Of a DNA stretch of 45,378 nt, positions 1,009 through 38,476 are shown piece by piece (the first letter of the stretch is position 1; the number at the start of each line of letters is the position of its first letter). The translations under genes were made by a program, and so were the position numbers. A model generated the notes under the pieces. That model had not been told where the DNA came from and ran no database searches. It was given only the letters and a program-made list of their open reading frames with translations. Origin of the DNA: a virus (taxonomy: Duplodnaviria > Heunggongvirae > Uroviricota > Caudoviricetes); the IMG/VR virus record IMGVR_UViG_2563366799_000010, positions 1 to 45,378 of that record; one strand, 5' to 3'.

Positions 1009-1083
1009 GTCCTCTTAGTTAAATGGATATAACGAGCCCCTCCTAAGGGCTAATTGCAGGTTCGATTCCTGCAGGGGACACCA
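1009..1083 (+). tRNA. argW: tRNA-Arg (anticodon CCU), prophage integration target
   Basis: 75-nt cloverleaf read directly: acceptor GTCCTCT/AGGGGAC, anticodon loop CTCCTAA (anticodon CCT), T-arm GCAGG-TTCGATT-CCTGC, 3' CCA. Confidence 0.85.
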
Positions 1084-1244
1084 TTTATCAGTTCGCCTCC
1101 ATCCGTACCAGTCCGCAAAATCCCCTGAATATCAAGCCTTCCGTAGATTCACAGTTCGTCATGGTTCGCGTCAGATCGTTGACAGCCGCACTCCATGACG
1201 GGTAAAAAGTGGATAAAATAATTTTACCCACCGGATTTTTACCC

Positions 1245-2402
1245 ATGCTCACCGTTAAGCAGATTGAAGCAGCAAAGCCGAAAGAAAAACCATACCGCCT
1301 TCTCGATGGTAATGGCCTGTACCTTTATGTCCCTGTATCAGGGAAAAAGGTATGGCAGCTTCGCTACAAGATTGACGGTAAGGAGAAAATCCTGACCGTA
1401 GGAAAATATCCGCTAATGACTTTGCAGGAAGCAAGAGATAAAGCATGGACCGCGAGGAAAGACATCTCGGTTGGCATCGATCCGGTAAAAGCGAAAAAGG
1501 CTTCGTCTAACAACAATTCCTTTAGTGCCATTTACAAGGAATGGTACGAGCACAAGAAGCAAGTCTGGTCAGTAGGCTATGCAACTGAACTTGCCAAAAT
1601 GTTTGATGACGACATTTTACCCATCATCGGCGGTCTTGAGATTCAGGATATTGAGCCGATGCAACTGCTGGAAGTAATCCGCAGATTTGAAGATCGCGGT
1701 GCAATGGAGCGAGCAAATAAAGCCCGCAGAAGATGCGGCGAGGTTTTCCGTTACGCTATTGTCACCGGCAGGGCTAAATATAACCCGGCACCTGACCTTG
1801 CAGACGCCATGAAAGGATACCGCAAGAAGAACTTCCCGTTTCTTCCTGCAGACCAGATCCCGGCATTCAACAAAGCACTGGCAACATTTTCAGGAAGTAT
1901 CGTATCGCTCATTGCGACCAAAGTTTTACGCTACACAGCCCTAAGAACGAAAGAGCTTCGCTCCATGCAATGGAAGAACGTCGATTTTGAAAACAGGATT
2001 ATCACCATCGACGCCAGTGTGATGAAGGGCCGCAAGATTCATGTTGTTCCTATGTCAGACCAGGTGGTTGAACTTCTCACTACGCTAAGCTCAATCACTA
2101 AACCAGTATCAGAGTTTGTTTTTGCCGGGCGCAACGATAAGAAGAAGCCAATCTGCGAGAACGCGGTATTGCTTGTGATTAAACAAATCGGCTATGAGGG
2201 TCTGGAAAGCGGTCACGGATTCAGGCATGAATTCAGCACGATTATGAACGAGCACGAATGGCCTGCTGACGCTATTGAAGTGCAACTTGCACATGCCAAC
2301 GGCGGATCTGTGCGCGGGATTTACAACCATGCTCAGTATCTAGATAAGCGCAGAGAAATGATGCAATGGTGGGCGGACTGGATTGATGGGAAGGTGGAGT
2401 GA
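1245..2402 (+). CDS. intS: P4-type tyrosine integrase (site-specific recombinase)
   Basis: 385 aa from the internal ATG (ORF track starts at a GTG at 1209); C-terminal HGFRHEF...HAQYL catalytic-type motifs; directly downstream of argW. Confidence 0.85.
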   Translation: MLTVKQIEAAKPKEKPYRLLDGNGLYLYVPVSGKKVWQLRYKIDGKEKILTVGKYPLMTLQEARDKAWTARKDISVGIDPVKAKKASSNNNSFSAIYKEWYEHKKQVWSVGYATELAKMFDDDILPIIGGLEIQDIEPMQLLEVIRRFEDRGAMERANKARRRCGEVFRYAIVTGRAKYNPAPDLADAMKGYRKKNFPFLPADQIPAFNKALATFSGSIVSLIATKVLRYTALRTKELRSMQWKNVDFENRIITIDASVMKGRKIHVVPMSDQVVELLTTLSSITKPVSEFVFAGRNDKKKPICENAVLLVIKQIGYEGLESGHGFRHEFSTIMNEHEWPADAIEVQLAHANGGSVRGIYNHAQYLDKRREMMQWWADWIDGKVE

Positions 2403-4506: not shown

Positions 4507-5702
4507 GACTCCACCGTTATAACGATATTTTCCGGGGTACAGGACGCAGATTCGTTGTATCTGATATCAATGTTTGATGACGACAAAGCCCCCGGGGATT
4601 TCCCAATCGTCAGTTCCTGAATATCGTAATAGCGTGCATTACCGCCACTCACCACGCCAAGATTCGCCGGTGAGTAAATGCGACTTAAAAGGACCGAATC
4701 ACCAATCATCAGACTATTGATATAGTCGGAAATAGCCTGCTGGATCTGCTGCCCTATCTGTGAGGTATAACCCGTAAAAACTTTTAATTTAATCCGGGCA
4801 TAAACAGGTACATCACTGGAACGCGAGAATTTGATTACATGGGGATTGCCGTATTTATCCGGAACCGTAACGGATGTTGTACCGTGAGTGGCTGTCCCCT
4901 GGCCTTTATTCCCTCTGATAGCCTGAGCAATATCCGTCACATCACCGCCATCCACAATTACAGCAACAGAGTGTGGCGGTAACCCGTTACCGTCCTCCGA
5001 ACCAGTATCGTTTTCATAGAGTTTGTGGCGGGTTACACCGGTAACATTAGAAACGGCACCATCCAGTGCTTCAAATGGGGTTATTGATGGCAACGCAACA
5101 CTTTGCGACTGGCGGATACGTAACTCCGCATCAGTTTCTGCTGGAGTGCCTACAGTAGCTGCAGCAGGATTGGTTACCGAAACCCAGCCACGGGTTGGCG
5201 TATTAATTTCAGTGATAGTTCCAGCCAGCGCCGCCACTGCACCACTGACGGAACATTTTGCGGTCGCCATCACTGTACCATCCACGCCGACCACCACTGA
5301 AGCAGGCAAACGCCATATCACATTATTACTGTCTTTCACGCTGCCATTAATGATGGTTGTTCCGGCAGTTCCTGTAAGAAGCAAATCAACCGTAGAGTTC
5401 GTCGCGCCTTTACGTGAAATACCATTTATTTTCACGTTGCTGGTCAGTGCAGCCCCATAGCCGGTTGCCGGTGAAAAACAGTTGTAGACAGTTATCGCCA
5501 TATTATTGGCATCATGAATCGCCAGCGCCATCAGAGCCACCATCTGGCCGTCTTTGCTGTCCGGTTCGAGGTAGGCATCACTGCCATAAACCTGCTGAAA
5601 ATAGCTAATCAGGGTGCTGAGTATCGTCTGATAATCAGGCGCACTGATCCCCTCCGCGGTTACCTTTGCAGATAAACCGAGAGAATCAAGGTTCAGAGCC
5701 AT
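4503..5702 (-). CDS. Baseplate J-like protein
   Basis: 399-aa ORF; size, position and sequence character of baseplate J/gp47-like wedge proteins. Confidence 0.65.
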   Translation of the reverse strand: MALNLDSLGLSAKVTAEGISAPDYQTILSTLISYFQQVYGSDAYLEPDSKDGQMVALMALAIHDANNMAITVYNCFSPATGYGAALTSNVKINGISRKGATNSTVDLLLTGTAGTTIINGSVKDSNNVIWRLPASVVVGVDGTVMATAKCSVSGAVAALAGTITEINTPTRGWVSVTNPAAATVGTPAETDAELRIRQSQSVALPSITPFEALDGAVSNVTGVTRHKLYENDTGSEDGNGLPPHSVAVIVDGGDVTDIAQAIRGNKGQGTATHGTTSVTVPDKYGNPHVIKFSRSSDVPVYARIKLKVFTGYTSQIGQQIQQAISDYINSLMIGDSVLLSRIYSPANLGVVSGGNARYYDIQELTIGKSPGALSSSNIDIRYNESASCTPENIVITVES

Positions 5703-27361: not shown

Positions 27362-27985
27362 CTAACGTGTGACCGCATTCAAAATATTGTCTGCGATTGA
27401 CTCTTCCTTGTGGCATTGCACCACCAGAGCGTCATACAGCGGCTTAACAGTGCGTGACCAGGTGGGTTGGGTAAGGTTTGGGATTAGCATCGTCACAGCG
27501 CGATATGCTGCGCTTGCTGGCATCCTTGAATAGCCGACGCCTTTGCATCTTCCGCACTCTTTCTCGACAACTCTCCCCCACTGCTCTGTTTTGGCTATAT
27601 CAACCGCACGGCCTGTACCGTGGCAATCTCTGCATCTTGCGCCCGGCGTCGCGGCACTACGGCAATAATCCGCATAAGCGAATGTTGCGAGCACTTGCAG
27701 TACCTTTGCCTTAGTATTTCCTTCAAGTTTTGCAACGCCACGGTATTTCCCCGATACCTTGTGTGCAAATTGCATCAGATAGTTGATAGCCTTTTGTTTG
27801 TCGTTCTGGCTGAGTTCATGCTTACCGCAGAATGCAGCCATTCCGAATCCGGCTTGTGATTGCGCCATCCCCATAGCAGCCATCACATCAGTACCGGAAA
27901 GAGAGTCAGAAGCCGTAGCCCGTGGTGAGTCGCTCATCATCGGGCTTTTTGGCGAATGAAATTTAGCTACGCTTTCGAGTCTCAT
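27362..27985 (-). CDS. Q: Late gene antiterminator Q
   Basis: 207-aa protein essentially matching lambda Q as recalled, including the Cys-rich zinc-binding region. Confidence 0.9.
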
Positions 27986-33519: not shown

Positions 33520-34365
33520 TCACTCCTGCGCCCATGAAGGCATTTCAGTTTGCCCGTAATCTTTGGCGGCAAAGTTTTCCTGCATAGCTCGCTGCTGCGG
33601 CCTCGGTTGAGATTTCCCCTTTGGAGTCTTGGGTTCAAAAATCCCCTGCCAACCACTGGCGATGCTCTGGTTTATAATTTCTTCAGGTGTATATCCCTTC
33701 TCCAGACTTCTGCTTAGAACGTTGATAGCCTGAGTGACGCTTTGCTTAGACTTGATCGACTTACCTATCTCCTTGCGATAGGTAACCCACGACAACCATG
33801 TTTCTGCCGATAACCAATCAGGCAACTCTGTTTCTAGCGGGTCGAACTTCTGAGAAATTTTTTTGGGGGATATAGGGGGTTTATTAATATTTTCTTTTGT
33901 CTTTAAAGAATGTCTTTTGTGTGTCTCTAACTTCGAGACATTGAGTGTCTCTAATTTGGAGACATTTTTTGTCTCTAACTTCGAGACAAAGTTGCTAACT
34001 TGGAGACACTTGCTGAATTGCCACGCAGATACCTCCCTGTTTACACCGATTTGATTTCCATCCATAAACAGGCAATTCATTGAAATCAGTTCTTTTTTAG
34101 CCTTGTTAACATTCTGCCTTGATAGTCCTGTTAACTGAGCAATTTGCTCATCGGCTATTCGATCTGTTTTCTTATTGAATCCATATGTTTTCCGGACGTA
34201 GGCCAGCATAACTTTCAACTGGCGAGCGGTTAAATCGGCACTTGCGATAGCTTCCAGCAGCTCGTTAGCGAATCTGGTGTAACCATCATCGATATCAGCC
34301 ACTCTTAGCTCCTGTTCGGCAAAGTTACCTCTGCCGAAGTTGAGTATTTTTGCTGTATTTGTCAT
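33520..34365 (-). CDS. Replication initiator (lambda O-like)
   Basis: 281-aa ORF; internal repeats VSKLET x3 are encoded by origin iterons lying inside the gene. Confidence 0.7.
   Translation of the reverse strand: MTNTAKILNFGRGNFAEQELRVADIDDGYTRFANELLEAIASADLTARQLKVMLAYVRKTYGFNKKTDRIADEQIAQLTGLSRQNVNKAKKELISMNCLFMDGNQIGVNREVSAWQFSKCLQVSNFVSKLETKNVSKLETLNVSKLETHKRHSLKTKENINKPPISPKKISQKFDPLETELPDWLSAETWLSWVTYRKEIGKSIKSKQSVTQAINVLSRSLEKGYTPEEIINQSIASGWQGIFEPKTPKGKSQPRPQQRAMQENFAAKDYGQTEMPSWAQE
33922..34008. repeat. Replication origin: four 19-bp iterons (TGTCTCTAACTTCGAGACA-like) at 24-bp spacing, flanked by an AT-rich tract (33850-33920)
   Basis: Read directly: copies at 33922, 33946, 33970 and a degenerate one near 33990, each an inverted repeat TGTCTC...GAGACA. 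Confidence 0.65.
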
Positions 34366-34397
34366 AATGACTCCTGTGGATTGATCCAGTAATTACC

Positions 34398-34694
34398 TCA
34401 GAATTGCATATCAATTTGCTTAAAATCCTCGGTGGCGGCCGGGGATTTTTTCTTTGTGATTTCATCAAGCGCATACTTAAAAGCCCTGCTAATCGGACTG
34501 ATGTCTGATGCCATTCCGAAAGCACACAAGACCGAAGCAATAAATCTCCAGTCCGTTCTGCTTATCTTCGATTCATGACAGCCAATCATCTTTGCCAGAC
34601 CGCGCTGGGTAAGCGTTGACAGGTTGATGAGTAAATCTGTTTCTGCGCGATCAATTTCTCGCTGTGTTGGCTTGCTGTAACTTGCTTGTGTCAT
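34398..34694 (-). CDS. CII-like transcriptional activator
   Basis: 98 aa; C-terminal KKKSPAATEDFKQIDMQF resembles the lambda CII C-terminus as recalled; position downstream of cro. Confidence 0.55.
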   Translation of the reverse strand: MTQASYSKPTQREIDRAETDLLINLSTLTQRGLAKMIGCHESKISRTDWRFIASVLCAFGMASDISPISRAFKYALDEITKKKSPAATEDFKQIDMQF

Positions 34695-34778: not shown

Positions 34779-34823
34779 TCGCTTTGTCAGCGACGTAGGA
34801 CGAATGTCCATTGTGAAAAGAGC
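34779..34823 (-). promoter_or_regulatory. nutR-like site (boxA-like CGCTCTTTTCA and boxB hairpin UCGCUGACAAAGCGA)
   Basis: Read on the minus strand between cro and cII; boxB has a GACAA pentaloop like the P22-type boxB upstream of N. Confidence 0.4.
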
Positions 34824-34831
34824 GGTGTTAC

Positions 34832-35065
34832 TTATGCTGCTGATGCTCTACGCGATACGAACACCAGGTTTTCCTTTTTCACGGGTTTATAGGCCGTGAA
34901 ATTACGAGTAGCTTCTTCGATTGCATTCGCTTTATCAGGGGAAGCTCTTCGAAATCCATATGCAATCTGGTCAAGATAGCCAACTGAAGTTTTCGCTAAT
35001 GCGGCGAGTCGCTTCCATTCCTCACTAGAAGCCTCTTTTCGCCAGCGTAGTAGTTCATTACTCAT
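34832..35065 (-). CDS. Cro-like repressor
   Basis: 77-aa ORF divergent from cI with a GGAGG RBS. Confidence 0.55.
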   Translation of the reverse strand: MSNELLRWRKEASSEEWKRLAALAKTSVGYLDQIAYGFRRASPDKANAIEEATRNFTAYKPVKKENLVFVSRRASAA

Positions 35066-35178
35066 TAGTGCCTCCGTTTATCATACAGAATAACTTTACC
35101 ATTTTGATAAATCAACCGCAATGTAAATTTATCATATTGCGTATTTATCCATTTGCTAAATAGAGGGAAAATTGTGAG
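35066..35178. promoter_or_regulatory. Right operator region with divergent promoters for cI and cro
   Basis: Four TTTATCA-type operator-like motifs including the palindrome TTGATAAATCAA; candidate -10 TAAAGT on the minus strand. Confidence 0.5.
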
Positions 35179-35883
35179 ATGGAAAACAAAGATATTCGCA
35201 AATCGAATCTGGCGTTTTTGCTAGATGAGCATAAAAAAATCGCGGGTAACACTAATGCAAGCTTTGCCGATAAGCTTGGGGTTAGCCCTTCTCAACTCAC
35301 GCAAGTCTCCGGTGAAAAAAGCACTCGAAACATAGGGGATAAACTAGCAAGAAAATTTGAAGCCGCACTTGGGTTACCTAATGGGTGGCTTGATTTGGTA
35401 CATGATGTAACACCAATTGCATCATGCTCAGATTCTTTAACTTTTGTCGGTCAGGTAAGAAAAGGGTTAGTGCGCGTGGTTGGTGAGGCAATTCTTGGTG
35501 TTGATGGTGCCATCGAGATGACCGAAGAGCGCGATGGGTGGCTCAAAATTTATAGCGATGATCCAGATGCCTTTGGCCTTCGTGTGAAAGGAGACAGCAT
35601 GTGGCCTAGAATAAAATCAGGAGAATATGTACTCATTGAGCCTAACACCAAAGTATTCCCGGGTGATGAGGTGTTTGTCAGAACCGTTGAAGGACACAAC
35701 ATGATTAAGGTTCTTGGCTATGACAGAGATGGAGAATACCAATTTACAAGCATCAACCAAGACCACAGGCCAATAACGTTGCCTTATCATCAAGTAGCAA
35801 AGGTGGAGTATGTGGCTGGTATTCTGAAGCAATCTCGCCATCTGGATGACATCGAGGCAAGGGAGTGGCTGAAAAGTTCGTGA
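35179..35883 (+). CDS. CI-type repressor (HTH plus S24 LexA-like autopeptidase)
   Basis: N-terminal HTH region; C-terminal S24 motif GDSMWPRIKSGEYVLIEPN with the catalytic Ser/Lys pattern. Confidence 0.85.
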   Translation: MENKDIRKSNLAFLLDEHKKIAGNTNASFADKLGVSPSQLTQVSGEKSTRNIGDKLARKFEAALGLPNGWLDLVHDVTPIASCSDSLTFVGQVRKGLVRVVGEAILGVDGAIEMTEERDGWLKIYSDDPDAFGLRVKGDSMWPRIKSGEYVLIEPNTKVFPGDEVFVRTVEGHNMIKVLGYDRDGEYQFTSINQDHRPITLPYHQVAKVEYVAGILKQSRHLDDIEAREWLKSS

Positions 35884-36083
35884 CTTCATCGTCCCATAGC
35901 TGATAGCCAGTGGCCTGAAGAGACGTTTGGGTGATGGGCAAGGTGTTCTGGTCGGCGCATAGCTGGTGAAAAAATTATTTAATGCGGTGTATTGGCTGAT
36001 TGTAACCCCATGTAACATCTTGCCGTCACCATTTCGGTGGTTAGATTTTTAATAAAAAAAACAAATGTATAGCAAGGTTTTTT

Positions 36084-36563
36084 ATGGATAAAATTAATTA
36101 CCCACCCCTGTTTGAGCCAGGGTTCCATGACATGGATGAAGCTGGATTAAAATCGTATTGTGTCGATTGCTTTCCTTCATCATCCAGGCGAGGCATGCTA
36201 TACTGTAATTTTATACAGCTACTCGAATCTATTCGAGAATTATCTGCTCAATATGGCTGTTTTACAGAAATATGGGTTGATGGTTCATACACCACGTCTA
36301 AACCAGAGCCTGATGATATTGATATTTTGTTGGTATGTGACTATAGCAATATAAACTCAATACCTGTCATGCTTCGGGGCCGCGTCGATAATTTGCTTGA
36401 CCGAAACTACATCAAACAAAACTACAAAATTGATGTCCTACTACTCATGAAGAATTTAGATGACCCTAACTATGATTATGAGTACTGGCGTAGCTACTGG
36501 CGCGGTTGGTTTGGTTTTGATCGCAGTGAAAACCCGAAAGGGTTAGTGAGGATTTTTTTATGA
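36084..36563 (+). CDS. Small nucleotidyltransferase-fold protein (minimal NTase-like), gene 1 of a cargo operon
   Basis: Motif ...WVDGSYTTSKPEPDDIDILLV (GS at residues 67-68, DxD at 78-80) fits the Pol-beta NTase signature; AAGG RBS; AT-rich. Confidence 0.55.
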   Translation: MDKINYPPLFEPGFHDMDEAGLKSYCVDCFPSSSRRGMLYCNFIQLLESIRELSAQYGCFTEIWVDGSYTTSKPEPDDIDILLVCDYSNINSIPVMLRGRVDNLLDRNYIKQNYKIDVLLLMKNLDDPNYDYEYWRSYWRGWFGFDRSENPKGLVRIFL

Positions 36564-37492
36564 ATGATAAATCAATGTTTAAAAATTGCGATAAACGCAT
36601 TGATTTCATTCAAAAAGAAGTCGATGCAATGAAGCAAAACAAAACCAGGTCCTTTGCTGACATGCTTCTTTATCGCTCCATGGATTCTCATCTGAGCGAT
36701 TTGAAGGCCGAAAAATTAAAGCAAGATAGTCGGCACCCACTTATCGATTTTTTTGAGCTGCGGCTGAAAGGCTCTGAGGTTGACTTTGGCTCTATTCCTT
36801 TAGAGCTGCTTGGGGCTATTTCAACAAATCTTGCAGCGCTAATACAAAGAGCAACACACAAAATTGCCTCAGGCAAGGACTCAAAAAAAGTTCCCTACGA
36901 CGTGAAAAGCTCCTTAAACCTCAGGCTGGCTGATTTATCCCCTGGGTCTACAAAATTGGGCGTCACCTTCTCTACAGGAATAGCAGAATTAGTAGAAACA
37001 GTACCCAGCAAGGCTGTAAAAGGCATATTCGATTTGTTGTTAAGCGATGACGACAACAACTTCATGAATCACGTCGCTGAAATTGGATACAATTCCACTG
37101 TAAGCCTTAAGAGAATCGTAGAGGAATGCGATAAACACAACTTAACATTTGATGCAAGTTGGACCGGTCCATTTAGTAATGGCACCAAGGTGGCAACTAT
37201 TGACTCCAATAAAATTAAGTACTTGGTGAGTAGACTTACATCAACCATTTCATCCCCTCCCATTACTGAAACGGTTACAGGCGAACTGGTCGTTCTATCC
37301 AAATATGGGAAGCTGGAGCTTGATGTTGGTGGTGAACATTTAAAGGCTTCCTATCCGATTGAAATGCTAGATTTAATACAAAAAAAACACAAGGTCGGAC
37401 AGATTGTTTCTCTTTTAGTGGAGACTACTGAGATTCACAATGATCGCATAGGTCTGTACCGTAAAAACCATCTTGTTAAATCGGTTCTTTAA
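36560..37492 (+). CDS. Hypothetical 310-aa protein, gene 2 of the cargo operon
   Basis: ATGA start/stop overlap with gene 1 implies translational coupling; soluble, mixed alpha/beta character, no recognisable motif. Confidence 0.55.
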   Translation: MNDKSMFKNCDKRIDFIQKEVDAMKQNKTRSFADMLLYRSMDSHLSDLKAEKLKQDSRHPLIDFFELRLKGSEVDFGSIPLELLGAISTNLAALIQRATHKIASGKDSKKVPYDVKSSLNLRLADLSPGSTKLGVTFSTGIAELVETVPSKAVKGIFDLLLSDDDNNFMNHVAEIGYNSTVSLKRIVEECDKHNLTFDASWTGPFSNGTKVATIDSNKIKYLVSRLTSTISSPPITETVTGELVVLSKYGKLELDVGGEHLKASYPIEMLDLIQKKHKVGQIVSLLVETTEIHNDRIGLYRKNHLVKSVL

Positions 37493-37499
37493 TATCTCA

Positions 37500-37526
37500 C
37501 CCGGCCTCAGCGCCGGGTTTTCTTTG
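37500..37526 (+). terminator. Rho-independent terminator ending the cI-cargo operon
   Basis: CCCGGC-CTCAGC-GCCGGG hairpin followed by TTTTCTTTG, 8 nt after the stop codon. Confidence 0.65.
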
Positions 37527-37704
37527 CCTCTCGATCCCCCACCTAAAAAAACATAACTCATTGTATTTATTGAAGAACTGATTGATACAACTTGCTAAAC
37601 CACGCAATCCAGATCTCCCTCAAATCTCTTTATTTATCCTGTCGAATTCCTACAACAAAATAAAACACCATAAGAATCAATACGATATTTGAAAATCAAA
37701 AGAA

Positions 37705-37760
37705 TTTATCATTTTGCTATTGCCATTAATTTATCATTCCGATAAAGTTTACCCATCAGC
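37705..37760 (+). promoter_or_regulatory. Left operator / pL candidate
   Basis: TTGCCA-17 nt-TAAAGT (37720..37748) overlapping TTTATCA-type operator motifs like those at the right operator. Confidence 0.4.
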
Positions 37761-37816
37761 AGGACGCACTACTCACCAGGGCGGTGAATATACAACGATT
37801 CGAATATGAATCTACG

Positions 37817-37831
37817 GCGCTGACAAAGCGC
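37817..37831 (+). promoter_or_regulatory. nutL boxB hairpin (GCGCUGACAAAGCGC)
   Basis: Perfect 5-bp stem with GACAA pentaloop, matching the P22-type boxB as recalled; upstream of the N-like gene. Confidence 0.5.
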
Positions 37832-38092
37832 AATAACCAAAGTGAACTTTGGGGTGTGGTGAAGCCAGCTAGTCACTGGCAAGTGCTTACCTACTGTTGA
37901 GCGGTGAAGCGCTCCCAACGCTAGCAATAGCGTGGACGAGATGGGGAGCCGCGGGCGATAAGGCCGCCATAACGCGCACGTTGTCGCATGGAAAAATCAC
38001 TGGGGTGCCGGTTATACCCCTCCGAATGAGACTCAACAAGCTGGAGCTAGACTACCAGCCACCACACCACCAAAGTTCATCAGGAGGTCTAT

Positions 38093-38476
38093 ATGACACG
38101 CAGAACTCAGTTCAAAGGCAATTCACGTTCTCGTCGTCGTGAGCGTTTAAAGGCAAAGGCATTAGCTAACGGCGTACTGGCCCGCGAAGAAGCAATAAGT
38201 TCAGAAGTATTACACCGCCCTACTCTAAGCAGAGCGCAGATTCAGGCTAAAGGTACTCACGAAACGCCTGAGCGCATAGAAGACGCTAAGCCAATTAAGT
38301 TCATGGCACAGGACGTGATCTGGCAACATAAAGAATACAGACGCAATCTGGAGAGAGCGGCCATTGTGTACGCGAATGATTTTGGACATAAGCAACCAGA
38401 AACTGGTGTATGTCTTCCAAACGTAGCCATTTACGCGGCAGGATACCGGAAATCAAAACAACTGACAGCGAGGTAA
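38093..38476 (+). CDS. N-like transcription antiterminator (P22 gp24-like)
   Basis: N-terminal Arg-rich motif TRRTQFKGNSRSRRRERLK; C-terminus LPNVAIYAAGYRKSKQLTAR resembles P22 gp24 as recalled. Confidence 0.65.
   Translation: MTRRTQFKGNSRSRRRERLKAKALANGVLAREEAISSEVLHRPTLSRAQIQAKGTHETPERIEDAKPIKFMAQDVIWQHKEYRRNLERAAIVYANDFGHKQPETGVCLPNVAIYAAGYRKSKQLTAR

What the first reader, a model, noticed from the sequence alone, without database searches (positions are those of the whole stretch)
34779..37831. P22-type boxB hairpins (GACAA pentaloop) at both nut positions
Seen in sequence: GCGCUGACAAAGCGC upstream of the N-like gene (37817-37831) and UCGCUGACAAAGCGA downstream of cro on the minus strand (34779-34793), the latter preceded by a boxA-like CGCTCTTTTCA. 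Established knowledge: N proteins recognise cognate boxB via their Arg-rich motif. This pairs a P22-type N/nut system with a lambda-type Q late switch.
Basis: partly seen in the sequence, partly recalled or inferred. Interest (0 to 1): 0.25.

Follow-up and report, generated by a model that had tools for sequence, protein, structure and literature searches.

The report
Known H-19B-type nut sites, P22-like boxB
The two small RNA hairpins are real and are the loading sites (nutL and nutR) for the phage's N antitermination protein, but they are the already studied sites of Shiga-toxin phage H-19B/933W, so the finding is correct and ordinary.

Summary
Both 15-mers are exactly where reported: GCGCTGACAAAGCGC at 37817-37831 (+) and TCGCTGACAAAGCGA at 34779-34793 (-). 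They share a 13-mer found nowhere else in the window (0.01 expected by chance). Each folds as a 5-bp stem with a GACAA loop, and the outer pair changes G-C to U-A. One lies between PL and N, the other between cro and cII, as in lambda. The immunity region is that of phage H-19B: cI 234/234, cro 75/77, N 122/127, nutL region identical, and nutR differs by one base across boxA, spacer and boxB. N carries the ARM 12-RSRRRER-18 used in published H-19B N/nutR experiments. The nutL boxB is also the exact RNA of the solved P22 N-peptide/boxB complex (PDB 1A4T). N falls in the same Pfam family as P22 gp24, not lambda N. About 100 related contigs keep both hairpins unchanged. Across the wider family the stem covaries. 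Q is 206/207 identical to lambda Q, but P22's own gp23 is 98% identical too, so "P22-type N with lambda-type Q" is what P22 itself has. Verdict: already known. One side observation may deserve follow-up: in this N family the ARM class tracks a GACAA pentaloop versus a GAAA tetraloop.

The parts
37817..37831 (+). nutL boxB: GCGCUGACAAAGCGC, 5-bp stem with GACAA pentaloop
   Evidence: Identical to P22 nutL boxB, to H-19B, 933W and BP-4795 nutL and to the 1A4T RNA. Unchanged in 76 of 76 IMG/VR relatives with enough upstream sequence.
37797..37812 (+). nutL spacer hairpin GAUUC-GAAUAU-GAAUC, followed by UACG (37813-37816) directly before boxB
   Evidence: Predicted in the MFE folds. In relatives the stem is constant while the loop varies: GAAUAU, AAAUAU, AAGCAA, AAACAU, AGUGAU. 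VT2-Sakai has a different stem, GUCGA..UCGAC, at the same place.
37773..37787 (+). First nutL hairpin CACC-AGGGCGG..GGUG, at the position where other nut sites have boxA; no boxA consensus here
   Evidence: Folds. Side-by-side reading with VT2-Sakai nutL, which has GCTCTTTAAACAACG where the window has GGTGAATATACAACG.
37720..37748 (+). PL-like promoter TTGCCA-17-TAAAGT overlapping repeated operator-like AATTTATCATT; inferred transcript start about 37755 (AUCAGCAGGACGC, as in lambda and P22)
   Evidence: The ATCAGCAGGACGC motif is shared with P22 PL. The start site is inferred, not measured.
34779..34793 (-). nutR boxB: UCGCUGACAAAGCGA, 5-bp stem with GACAA pentaloop
   Evidence: Identical in H-19B, 933W and BP-4795. 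Unchanged in 65 of 77 IMG/VR N-bearing relatives; nutR was not found in the other 12, most of which have little sequence upstream of N.
34798..34809 (-). nutR spacer hairpin GGAC-AUUC-GUCC, followed by UACG (34794-34797) before boxB
   Evidence: Centroid fold and MFE fold. Present in every relative examined. [quoted passage not shown]
34814..34824 (-). nutR boxA-like CGCUCUUUUCA
   Evidence: H-19B, 933W and BP-4795 have CGCUAUUUUCA. This is the most variable part of nutR in the family.
38093..38476 (+). N antitermination protein, 127 aa, ARM 12-RSRRRER-18
   Evidence: Pfam PF25694, E 2.5e-15. 122/127 identical to H-19B N, with no difference before residue 60. 98.4% identical to 933W and phi24B N. 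The ARM string matches PMC3526286.
37842..38080 (+). N leader: a 20-bp long-range helix (37842-37861 with 38060-38080) enclosing a variable interior and ending just 5' of the N Shine-Dalgarno sequence
   Evidence: 339-nt leader fold, z -4.1. The consensus fold of six relatives keeps the helix, and 11 of its 27 pairs show compensatory changes.
34832..35065 (-). cro (77 aa), upstream of nutR
   Evidence: 75/77 identical to H-19B Cro.
35179..35883 (+). cI repressor (234 aa, Peptidase_S24)
   Evidence: 234/234 identical to H-19B cI. Pfam hit.
34398..34694 (-). cII (98 aa), downstream of nutR
   Evidence: Pfam Phage_CII, E 4e-33. 89/98 identical to H-19B cII.
27362..27985 (-). Q late antiterminator, lambda type (207 aa)
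   Evidence: 206/207 identical to lambda Q and 202/207 to P22 gp23. Pfam PF03589. DNA from before Q through its downstream flank (PR'/qut position) is 97% identical to lambda, and 95.6% to P22 through its annotated late terminator.

Best explanation
The two hairpins are the boxB elements of nutL and nutR of a lambdoid prophage that carries the immunity and N module of Shiga-toxin phage H-19B (also found in 933W, phi24B and BP-4795). Inferred steps, by analogy with lambda and P22: transcripts from PL and PR contain the nut RNA, the N-terminal arginine-rich helix of N binds the GACAA loop, and that loop adopts a GNRA-like fold with the C looped out, as in the solved P22 complex. Steps shown experimentally for H-19B in the literature: N together with NusA (helped by NusG) occupies the spacer and boxB, and its C-terminal region modifies RNA polymerase so that it reads through downstream terminators, including the Rho-dependent tR1 that overlaps nutR. 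The RNA target is P22-like. The spacer hairpins and the weak or absent boxA are H-19B-specific. The late switch is a separate lambda/P22-type Q module.
For: Sequence and position. Identity with H-19B: cI 234/234, cro 75/77, N 122/127; the nutL stretch compared is identical; nutR differs by one base (in boxA) across boxA, spacer and boxB, plus two bases just 3' of boxB. Published H-19B work uses exactly this ARM. Mutations R3H, S11F, R15C/P and R18P abolish antitermination, and these residues are all present here. N plus NusA/NusG protect the spacer and boxB of H-19B nutR but not boxA, and nutR has two hairpins (PMC3526286). P22 link: the nutL 15-mer equals P22 nutL boxB and the 1A4T RNA, with the C looped out of GACAA (PMC12550061); N and gp24 are in the same Pfam family. 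Conservation: both boxB are unchanged in about 100 loci that encode this N. Structure: over 10 distinct boxB of the family 96% of cells pair, 3 of 5 pairs show double changes, and the covariation score is 0.636 against 0.144 in shuffles (0 of 500 reach it) and at most 0.133 when the partner is slid. Within the window the outer pair is G-C in nutL and U-A in nutR.
Against: Nothing in the window argues against it. Limits: no binding or antitermination assay was done on this particular sequence. The window N differs from H-19B N at five residues (60, 79, 80, 96, 113), all outside the ARM. BLASTP does not align the ARM with P22 gp24, and ungapped ARM identity is only 8 of 20. The RRRER core is shared with lambda N too (from memory of the lambda N sequence), so it does not on its own mark the ARM as P22-type. 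The statements that H-19B N needs NusA but not NusB/S10 and that BOXA is dispensable rest on my memory of Neely & Friedman 2000, which I could not read.
Confidence: 0.95

Rival explanations
1. The hairpins are boxB sites, but the resemblance to P22 is only in the RNA. H-19B-type N would then read GACAA in its own way and would not be interchangeable with P22 gp24, so 'P22-type N/nut system' overstates the relationship.
For: N and gp24 share 40% identity in the alignment and BLASTP aligns only the last 30 residues. The ARM is 8/20 identical. The nut architecture differs: spacer hairpins, a 22-nt spacer at nutR against 8 nt in P22, and no boxA at nutL.
Against: The 15-nt nutL boxB is identical in the two phages. 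Both N proteins belong to PF25694. The gp24 residues reported to touch the looped-out C or the G-A step are K16, H20, R24 and I28. In helical register they are R12, R16, K20 and L24 here. Relatives with a GAAA tetraloop have Ala at position 20 and Asn or Ser at position 24.
Confidence: 0.3
2. The hairpins are chance inverted repeats or ordinary intrinsic terminators, not protein-binding sites.
For: They are short. In 51-76 nt context the folding z-scores are only -1.3 and -0.6.
Against: The shared 13-mer has a chance expectation of 0.01. Neither hairpin is followed by a U-run (AAUAACC and GCCCCAAG follow them), and neither is in the terminator scan. They sit at the two canonical nut positions. 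They are invariant in about 100 relatives while neighbouring bases vary. The stem covaries across the family.
Confidence: 0.01
3. The nutL hairpin serves mainly in translational autoregulation of N together with the long leader helix, as reported for lambda (N bound at nutL represses N translation and RNase III cleavage of the leader relieves this). This would be an added function, not a replacement for antitermination.
For: A 20-bp helix (37842-37861 with 38060-38080) ends just before the N Shine-Dalgarno sequence and is kept by compensatory changes in relatives. The lambda precedent is from memory and was not checked here.
Against: No data here on RNase III or on translation. It does not explain nutR, which has the same boxB.
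Confidence: 0.3

Closest known systems
Phage H-19B (and 933W, phi24B, BP-4795) N-nutL/nutR system
   Same: Essentially the same element. cI is 100%, cro 97% and N 96% identical. nutL is identical over the stretch compared. In nutR the spacer hairpin and boxB are identical. The ARM RSRRRER is the one used in the published H-19B experiments.
   Different: One base in the nutR boxA: CGCUCUUUU here, CGCUAUUUU in H-19B. Both variants are common among relatives. N has five substitutions outside the ARM. The cassette between cI and PL is different. Q is a different family: lambda-type PF03589 here, PF06530 in H-19B.
Phage P22 gp24 (N)-boxB, PDB 1A4T
   Same: The nutL boxB 15-mer is identical and the loop is GACAA at both sites. 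N is in the same Pfam family, and 20 of the last 30 residues are identical. P22 also has the lambda-type Q.
   Different: The ARM is only 8/20 identical. P22 nut sites have a canonical boxA 6-8 nt upstream and no spacer hairpin. P22 nutR has a C.C-closed CGACAAC loop on a different stem.
Phage lambda N-boxB
   Same: Same gene order, same nut positions, an ARM helix binding a GNRA-like pentaloop, a long N leader, and the same Q.
   Different: Lambda boxB loops are GAAAA and GAAGA, with the fourth base extruded (from memory). Lambda N is in a different Pfam family, PF11438. Lambda requires boxA and NusB/NusE (PMC2800207 abstract).
VT2-Sakai-type and epsilon34/g341c-type N-nut
   Same: Same N family, and the same nutR scaffold: spacer hairpin GGACAUUCGUCC, then UACG, then the stem UCGCU..AGCGA.
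   Different: The loop is a GAAA tetraloop, i.e. it lacks the C. The ARM classes differ: FNGSAAGRRRERRAALQN and FKGTAASRRRARRANLQS.

Membership tests
H-19B/933W-type N-nut antitermination system | N protein of the H-19B type with ARM 12-RSRRRER-18 | tested here: met
   122/127 identical to H-19B N (AF034975), with no difference before residue 60. The ARM string is as quoted in PMC3526286.
H-19B/933W-type N-nut antitermination system | nutR = boxA-like, then spacer hairpin, then GACAA boxB, downstream of cro | tested here: met
   One base differs from H-19B, 933W and BP-4795 across boxA, spacer and boxB. [quoted passage not shown]
H-19B/933W-type N-nut antitermination system | nutL between PL and N with the same boxB loop and a spacer hairpin | tested here: met
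   The stretch from PL to past boxB that was compared is identical to H-19B.
H-19B/933W-type N-nut antitermination system | Antitermination depends on NusA, with a reduced need for boxA and NusB/S10 | not testable with these tools
   Needs genetics or in vitro transcription. Indirect support only: boxA varies or is absent in relatives, and boxA was not protected in H-19B footprints.
P22-type boxB (GNRA-like pentaloop with the third base looped out) | 5-bp stem with loop G-A-C-A-A | tested here: met
   The nutL 15-mer equals P22 nutL and the 1A4T RNA.
P22-type boxB (GNRA-like pentaloop with the third base looped out) | Cognate N homologous to gp24 | tested here: met
   Both hit PF25694 above its cut-off, at 57.2 and 152.2 bits. 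Lambda N does not.
P22-type boxB (GNRA-like pentaloop with the third base looped out) | ARM residues that contact the loop in 1A4T are conserved | tested here: inconclusive
   In ungapped register K16, H20, R24 and I28 of gp24 correspond to R12, R16, K20 and L24, all conservative changes. MAFFT puts a gap after position 21, so the I28/L24 match depends on the register assumed.
P22-type boxB (GNRA-like pentaloop with the third base looped out) | P22 nut layout: canonical boxA 6-8 nt upstream of boxB | tested here: not met
   nutL has no boxA consensus. nutR has a 22-nt spacer with a hairpin. The boxB is P22-type; the nut site as a whole is not.
P22-type boxB (GNRA-like pentaloop with the third base looped out) | Functional interchangeability with gp24 and P22 nut | not testable with these tools
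   Needs a reporter assay.
Lambda-type Q late switch | Q protein of the lambda family | tested here: met
   206/207 identical to lambda Q. Pfam PF03589 for both.
Lambda-type Q late switch | Lambda-like PR'/qut directly downstream of Q | tested here: met
   97% DNA identity to lambda runs from before Q to about 100 bp past it, and 95.6% to P22 through its annotated late terminator.

The most novel reading that the evidence does not exclude
Within the N family that ends ...YAAG[HY]RKSKQ[LI]TAR, two natural RNA-specificity classes differ by a one-base indel in the boxB loop, placed on an otherwise identical nutR scaffold: G-N-C-A-A pentaloop versus GAAA tetraloop. The indel tracks ARM positions 20 and 24, which are Lys/Arg and Leu/Ile with the pentaloop and Ala and Asn/Ser with the tetraloop. 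In P22 these are the positions that touch the looped-out C. If this is causal, the family offers a minimal, naturally evolved specificity switch for an ARM-RNA pair, and it predicts that H-19B N and P22 gp24 cross-recognise each other's boxB.
Probability: 0.45. Interest if true: 0.35.

Novelty: already known. Interest (0 to 1): 0.1.

Why it matters
For this window it matters little: it confirms that the prophage has a complete early antitermination module of the H-19B/933W type, next to a lambda/P22-type Q. This N/nut module controls early gene expression in many Shiga-toxin phages, so seeing it on a non-Stx backbone with myovirus-like structural genes illustrates how freely it moves between phages. 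The family-wide link between ARM class and loop type could be useful for RNA-peptide recognition work and for designing orthogonal N/boxB tethering pairs.

Tried and rejected
Several checks gave nothing:
- Rfam at gathering thresholds found only a tRNA (1009-1080); no nut or boxB family matched.
- A PDB sequence search with N gave no match even at E = 10, so the 1A4T link rests on the RNA sequence and on Pfam, not on a peptide hit.
- BLASTP of N against gp24 aligned only the C-terminus. The ARM comparison therefore used MAFFT and an ungapped register.
- Neely & Friedman 2000 is not held.
- The supplement of PMC3526286 has the nut-site figure only as an image, so the H-19B nutR sequence was taken from GenBank AF034975 instead.
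- The first IMG/VR scan, with a family alignment, returned only near-identical relatives. Diversity came from three further scans with P22, g341c and Sakai N.

Readings considered and rejected: the hairpins as terminators (no U-run, and absent from the scan), and a chance repeat.

The MAFFT alignment of boxB placed the tetraloop gap in the stem. I redid it with N at the looped-out position before counting pairs.
Full report
**Observation**

GCGCTGACAAAGCGC is at 37817-37831 on the + strand and TCGCTGACAAAGCGA is at 34779-34793 on the - strand. Their common 13-mer CGCTGACAAAGCG occurs only at these two places in the window. The chance expectation is 0.01, and none of 100 shuffles gave two copies. 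Each 15-mer folds as a 5-bp stem with a GACAA loop, at -7.1 and -5.6 kcal/mol with z -3.2 and -3.8. The outermost pair is G-C in one copy and U-A in the other, a compensatory change within one genome. The boxA-like CGCTCTTTTCA is at 34814-34824 on the - strand.

**Context**

The region has lambda gene order, inverted in the window.
- - strand: O-like 33520-34365, cII 34398-34694 (Pfam Phage_CII), nutR, cro 34832-35065.
- + strand: cI 35179-35883 (Peptidase_S24), two extra genes 36084-37492, a terminator at 37499-37518, then the PL-like promoter TTGCCA-17-TAAAGT (37720-37748) overlapping repeated AATTTATCATT operators. After that come nutL, a 262-nt leader and N at 38093-38476.
- N hits Pfam PF25694 'Transcriptional antitermination N peptide'.

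By analogy with lambda and P22, whose transcripts start with the same AUCAGCAGGACGC, the PL transcript starts near 37755. That places boxB-L at about +63 to +77. This start site is inferred.

**What it is**

N is 98.4% identical to the N of 933W, phi24B, Min27 and many Stx1/Stx2 phages, and 96% identical to BP-4795 N. A direct comparison with the H-19B GenBank record AF034975 gives:
- cI 234/234, cro 75/77, cII 89/98 and N 122/127, with all N differences at or after residue 60.
- The stretch from PL through boxB-L that was compared is identical.
- nutR differs by one base in boxA (CGCTCTTTT against CGCTATTTT) and by two bases just 3' of boxB.

This is therefore the H-19B immunity and N module.

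That system has been studied experimentally. PMC3526286 gives the ARM as 12-RSRRRER-18, which is exactly what is encoded here. It reports that R3H, S11F, R15C/P and R18P abolish antitermination at H-19B nutR/tR1; all four residues are present here. It also states that nutR has two hairpins, and that N plus NusA/NusG protect the spacer and boxB but not boxA. The second hairpin is visible in the window at 34798-34809 (GGAC-AUUC-GUCC). nutL has an analogous one at 37797-37812 (GAUUC-GAAUAU-GAAUC).

From memory of Neely & Friedman 2000 (cited as reference 31 in PMC3526286; not readable here), these spacer dyads were described for H-19B, together with independence from BOXA, NusB and S10. What I see is consistent with that. 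nutL has no boxA consensus, and the nutR boxA is the most variable segment among relatives.

**Is it 'P22-type'?**

In the P22 reference genome nutL reads CGCTCTTTAAC-ttcgatga-TGCGCTGACAAAGCGCG and nutR reads CGCTCTTTACC-aatctga-ACCGCCGACAACGCGGT. The window's nutL boxB is thus identical over all 15 nt to P22 boxB-left. That sequence is also the RNA in the solved complex PDB 1A4T (PMC11480772). In that complex the C is looped out of a GNRA-like GACAA fold (PMC12550061).

P22 gp24 and this N both belong to PF25694, whereas lambda N belongs to PF11438. Overall similarity is modest. It is 40% in the alignment, and BLASTP aligns only the last 30 residues at 67% identity. In ungapped register the ARMs share 8 of 20 residues.

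The gp24 residues reported to touch G6/A7 or the looped-out C are K16, H20, R24 and I28. They correspond here to R12, R16, K20 and L24. 'P22-type boxB' is therefore accurate. 'P22-type nut site' is only partly accurate, because P22 has a canonical boxA close to boxB and no spacer hairpins.

**Conservation**

- Among the 77 of 80 IMG/VR loci in which this N was found, 76 of 76 with enough upstream sequence have the identical boxB-L. Sixty-five have the identical boxB-R; the rest mostly lack the sequence.
- Variation falls in the loop of the nutL spacer hairpin and in boxA, not in boxB.
- About 240 further loci, found with P22, g341c and VT2-Sakai N, extend the picture. Every N class has a matching hairpin at both nut positions.
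- Ten distinct boxB sequences of the family give 96% paired cells and three of five pairs with changes on both sides. The covariation score is 0.636, against 0.144 in shuffles (0 of 500 reach it) and at most 0.133 when the partner is slid.

The hairpins are conserved and structurally constrained.

**The Q statement**

The Q at 27362-27985 is 206/207 identical to lambda Q and 202/207 identical to P22 gp23. The DNA from before Q through its downstream flank, where lambda has PR'/qut, matches lambda at 97%. It matches P22 at 95.6% through its annotated late terminator. The statement is therefore true. P22 itself combines a GACAA-boxB N system with this Q, so the combination is not unusual. The real mosaic point is that H-19B carries a different Q family (PF06530).

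**Mechanism, and what is shown**

Shown here:
- sequence, position and fold of the two hairpins;
- conservation and stem covariation;
- identity with H-19B;
- identity of boxB-L with the 1A4T RNA.

Shown in the literature for H-19B:
- ARM-dependent antitermination at nutR/tR1;
- occupancy of the spacer and boxB by N plus NusA/NusG;
- a C-terminal RNAP-binding region.

Inferred:
- this N, which has five substitutions outside the ARM, behaves in the same way;
- the loop adopts the P22-like fold when bound by this N;
- the transcript start sites.

**Rivals**

A chance repeat or a terminator is excluded: there is no U-run, neither hairpin appears in the terminator scan, and the chance expectation is 0.01. 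A narrower rival remains open without an assay: the RNA is P22-like but the protein reads it in its own way and is not interchangeable with gp24. An added role of nutL in N autoregulation is plausible. It would act through the conserved 20-bp leader helix (37842-37861 with 38060-38080). It was not tested.

**Side observation**

ARM class and loop type go together at both nut sites.
- The H-19B, SPN9CC, P22 and one FKGSSAA class have G-N-C-A-A. SPN9CC nutL has GUCAA in a C.C-closed loop like P22 nutR.
- The g341c/epsilon34 and VT2-Sakai classes have a plain GAAA tetraloop on the same nutR scaffold.
- ARM positions 20 and 24 are Lys/Arg and Leu/Ile in the first group, and Ala and Asn/Ser in the second.

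This rests on only about six independent classes, so it is suggestive rather than proven. The epsilon34 genome paper predicted 'a novel BoxB specificity' for its N but does not discuss the nut sites or give a boxB sequence in its text (PMC2629481). My literature searches found no description of the tetraloop class.

**Verdict**

The element is the already characterised H-19B/933W N-nut system with a P22-identical boxB. Interest is low.

Noticed in passing
window 34779-34793 and 37817-37831; loci L003-L007 and L010-L328: In the N family ending ...YAAGxRKSKQxTAR, ARM class and boxB loop type co-vary at both nut sites. The H-19B, SPN9CC, P22 and one FKGSSAA class have a G-N-C-A-A pentaloop. The g341c/epsilon34 and VT2-Sakai classes have a GAAA tetraloop on the same nutR scaffold, so the difference is a 1-nt indel. 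ARM positions 20 and 24 are K/R and L/I versus A and N/S. This rests on only about six independent classes.
   Followed up: partly
window 36084-37492 (+): A two-gene cassette sits between cI and PL, in the position of lambda rexAB. It encodes a DUF6932 protein (159 aa) and a 310-aa protein with no Pfam hit. They match PADLOC candidate defence system PDC-M63A and PDC-M63B (E 1.8e-41 and 7.5e-45). H-19B, BP-4795 and mEp506 carry other genes here. The cassette is present at 80% coverage or more in 18 of 5,426 complete E. coli genomes.
   Followed up: partly
window 37842-37861 paired with 38060-38080: A long-range 20-bp helix in the N leader encloses a highly variable interior and ends just 5' of the N Shine-Dalgarno sequence. 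The leader fold has z -4.1. The helix is kept in 933W, BP-4795, SPN9CC, SI5 and P22, and 11 of the 27 consensus-fold pairs are compensatory. It resembles the RNase III site of the lambda N leader (from memory).
   Followed up: partly
window 37773-37787 (+): nutL has no boxA consensus. Where VT2-Sakai has GCTCTTTAAACAACG the window has GGTGAATATACAACG, preceded by a small hairpin CACC-loop-GGUG. That stem is conserved and its loop varies in the Salmonella relatives.
   Followed up: partly
window 34340-34449 (+): An oop-like antisense unit lies opposite the 3' end of cII. It has a promoter-like TTGAGT-17-CATAAT with an extended TG (34340-34368) and a terminator-like hairpin with a T-run (34422-34449). 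Rfam gave no match.
   Followed up: no
window 1009-1080 (+) and 1209-2402 (+): A tRNA gene (Rfam 63.4 bits) lies next to a 397-aa ORF at the left end of the window. This may be a prophage or island junction. The ORF was not examined.
   Followed up: no
window 2400-27000: The structural genes are not lambda-like or Stx-phage-like. The best matches carry baseplate annotations typical of contractile-tailed phages: Yersinia phage YP3 (62% coverage, 90% identity), E. coli vB_EcoM phages and Salmonella SEN34. The prophage is therefore a mosaic of an H-19B immunity/N module, a lambda/P22 Q and an apparently myovirus-type virion module.
   Followed up: partly
L001 (BP-4795, AJ556162) 4919-5368: The deposited BP-4795 N CDS starts 66 nt upstream of the ATG that corresponds to the H-19B and 933W N start (MTRRTQF...). 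VT2-Sakai N is likewise annotated with a 24-residue N-terminal extension. These are probably over-extended start calls that hide the ARM's N-terminal position.
   Followed up: no
L003 (SPN9CC) 4883-4897: SPN9CC-type phages have a nutL boxB GCUC-C-GUCAA-C-GAGC. The loop is GUCAA rather than GACAA and is closed by a C.C mismatch like P22 nutR. Their nutR is UCGCU-GACAA-GGCGA, with a U.G closing pair.
   Followed up: partly
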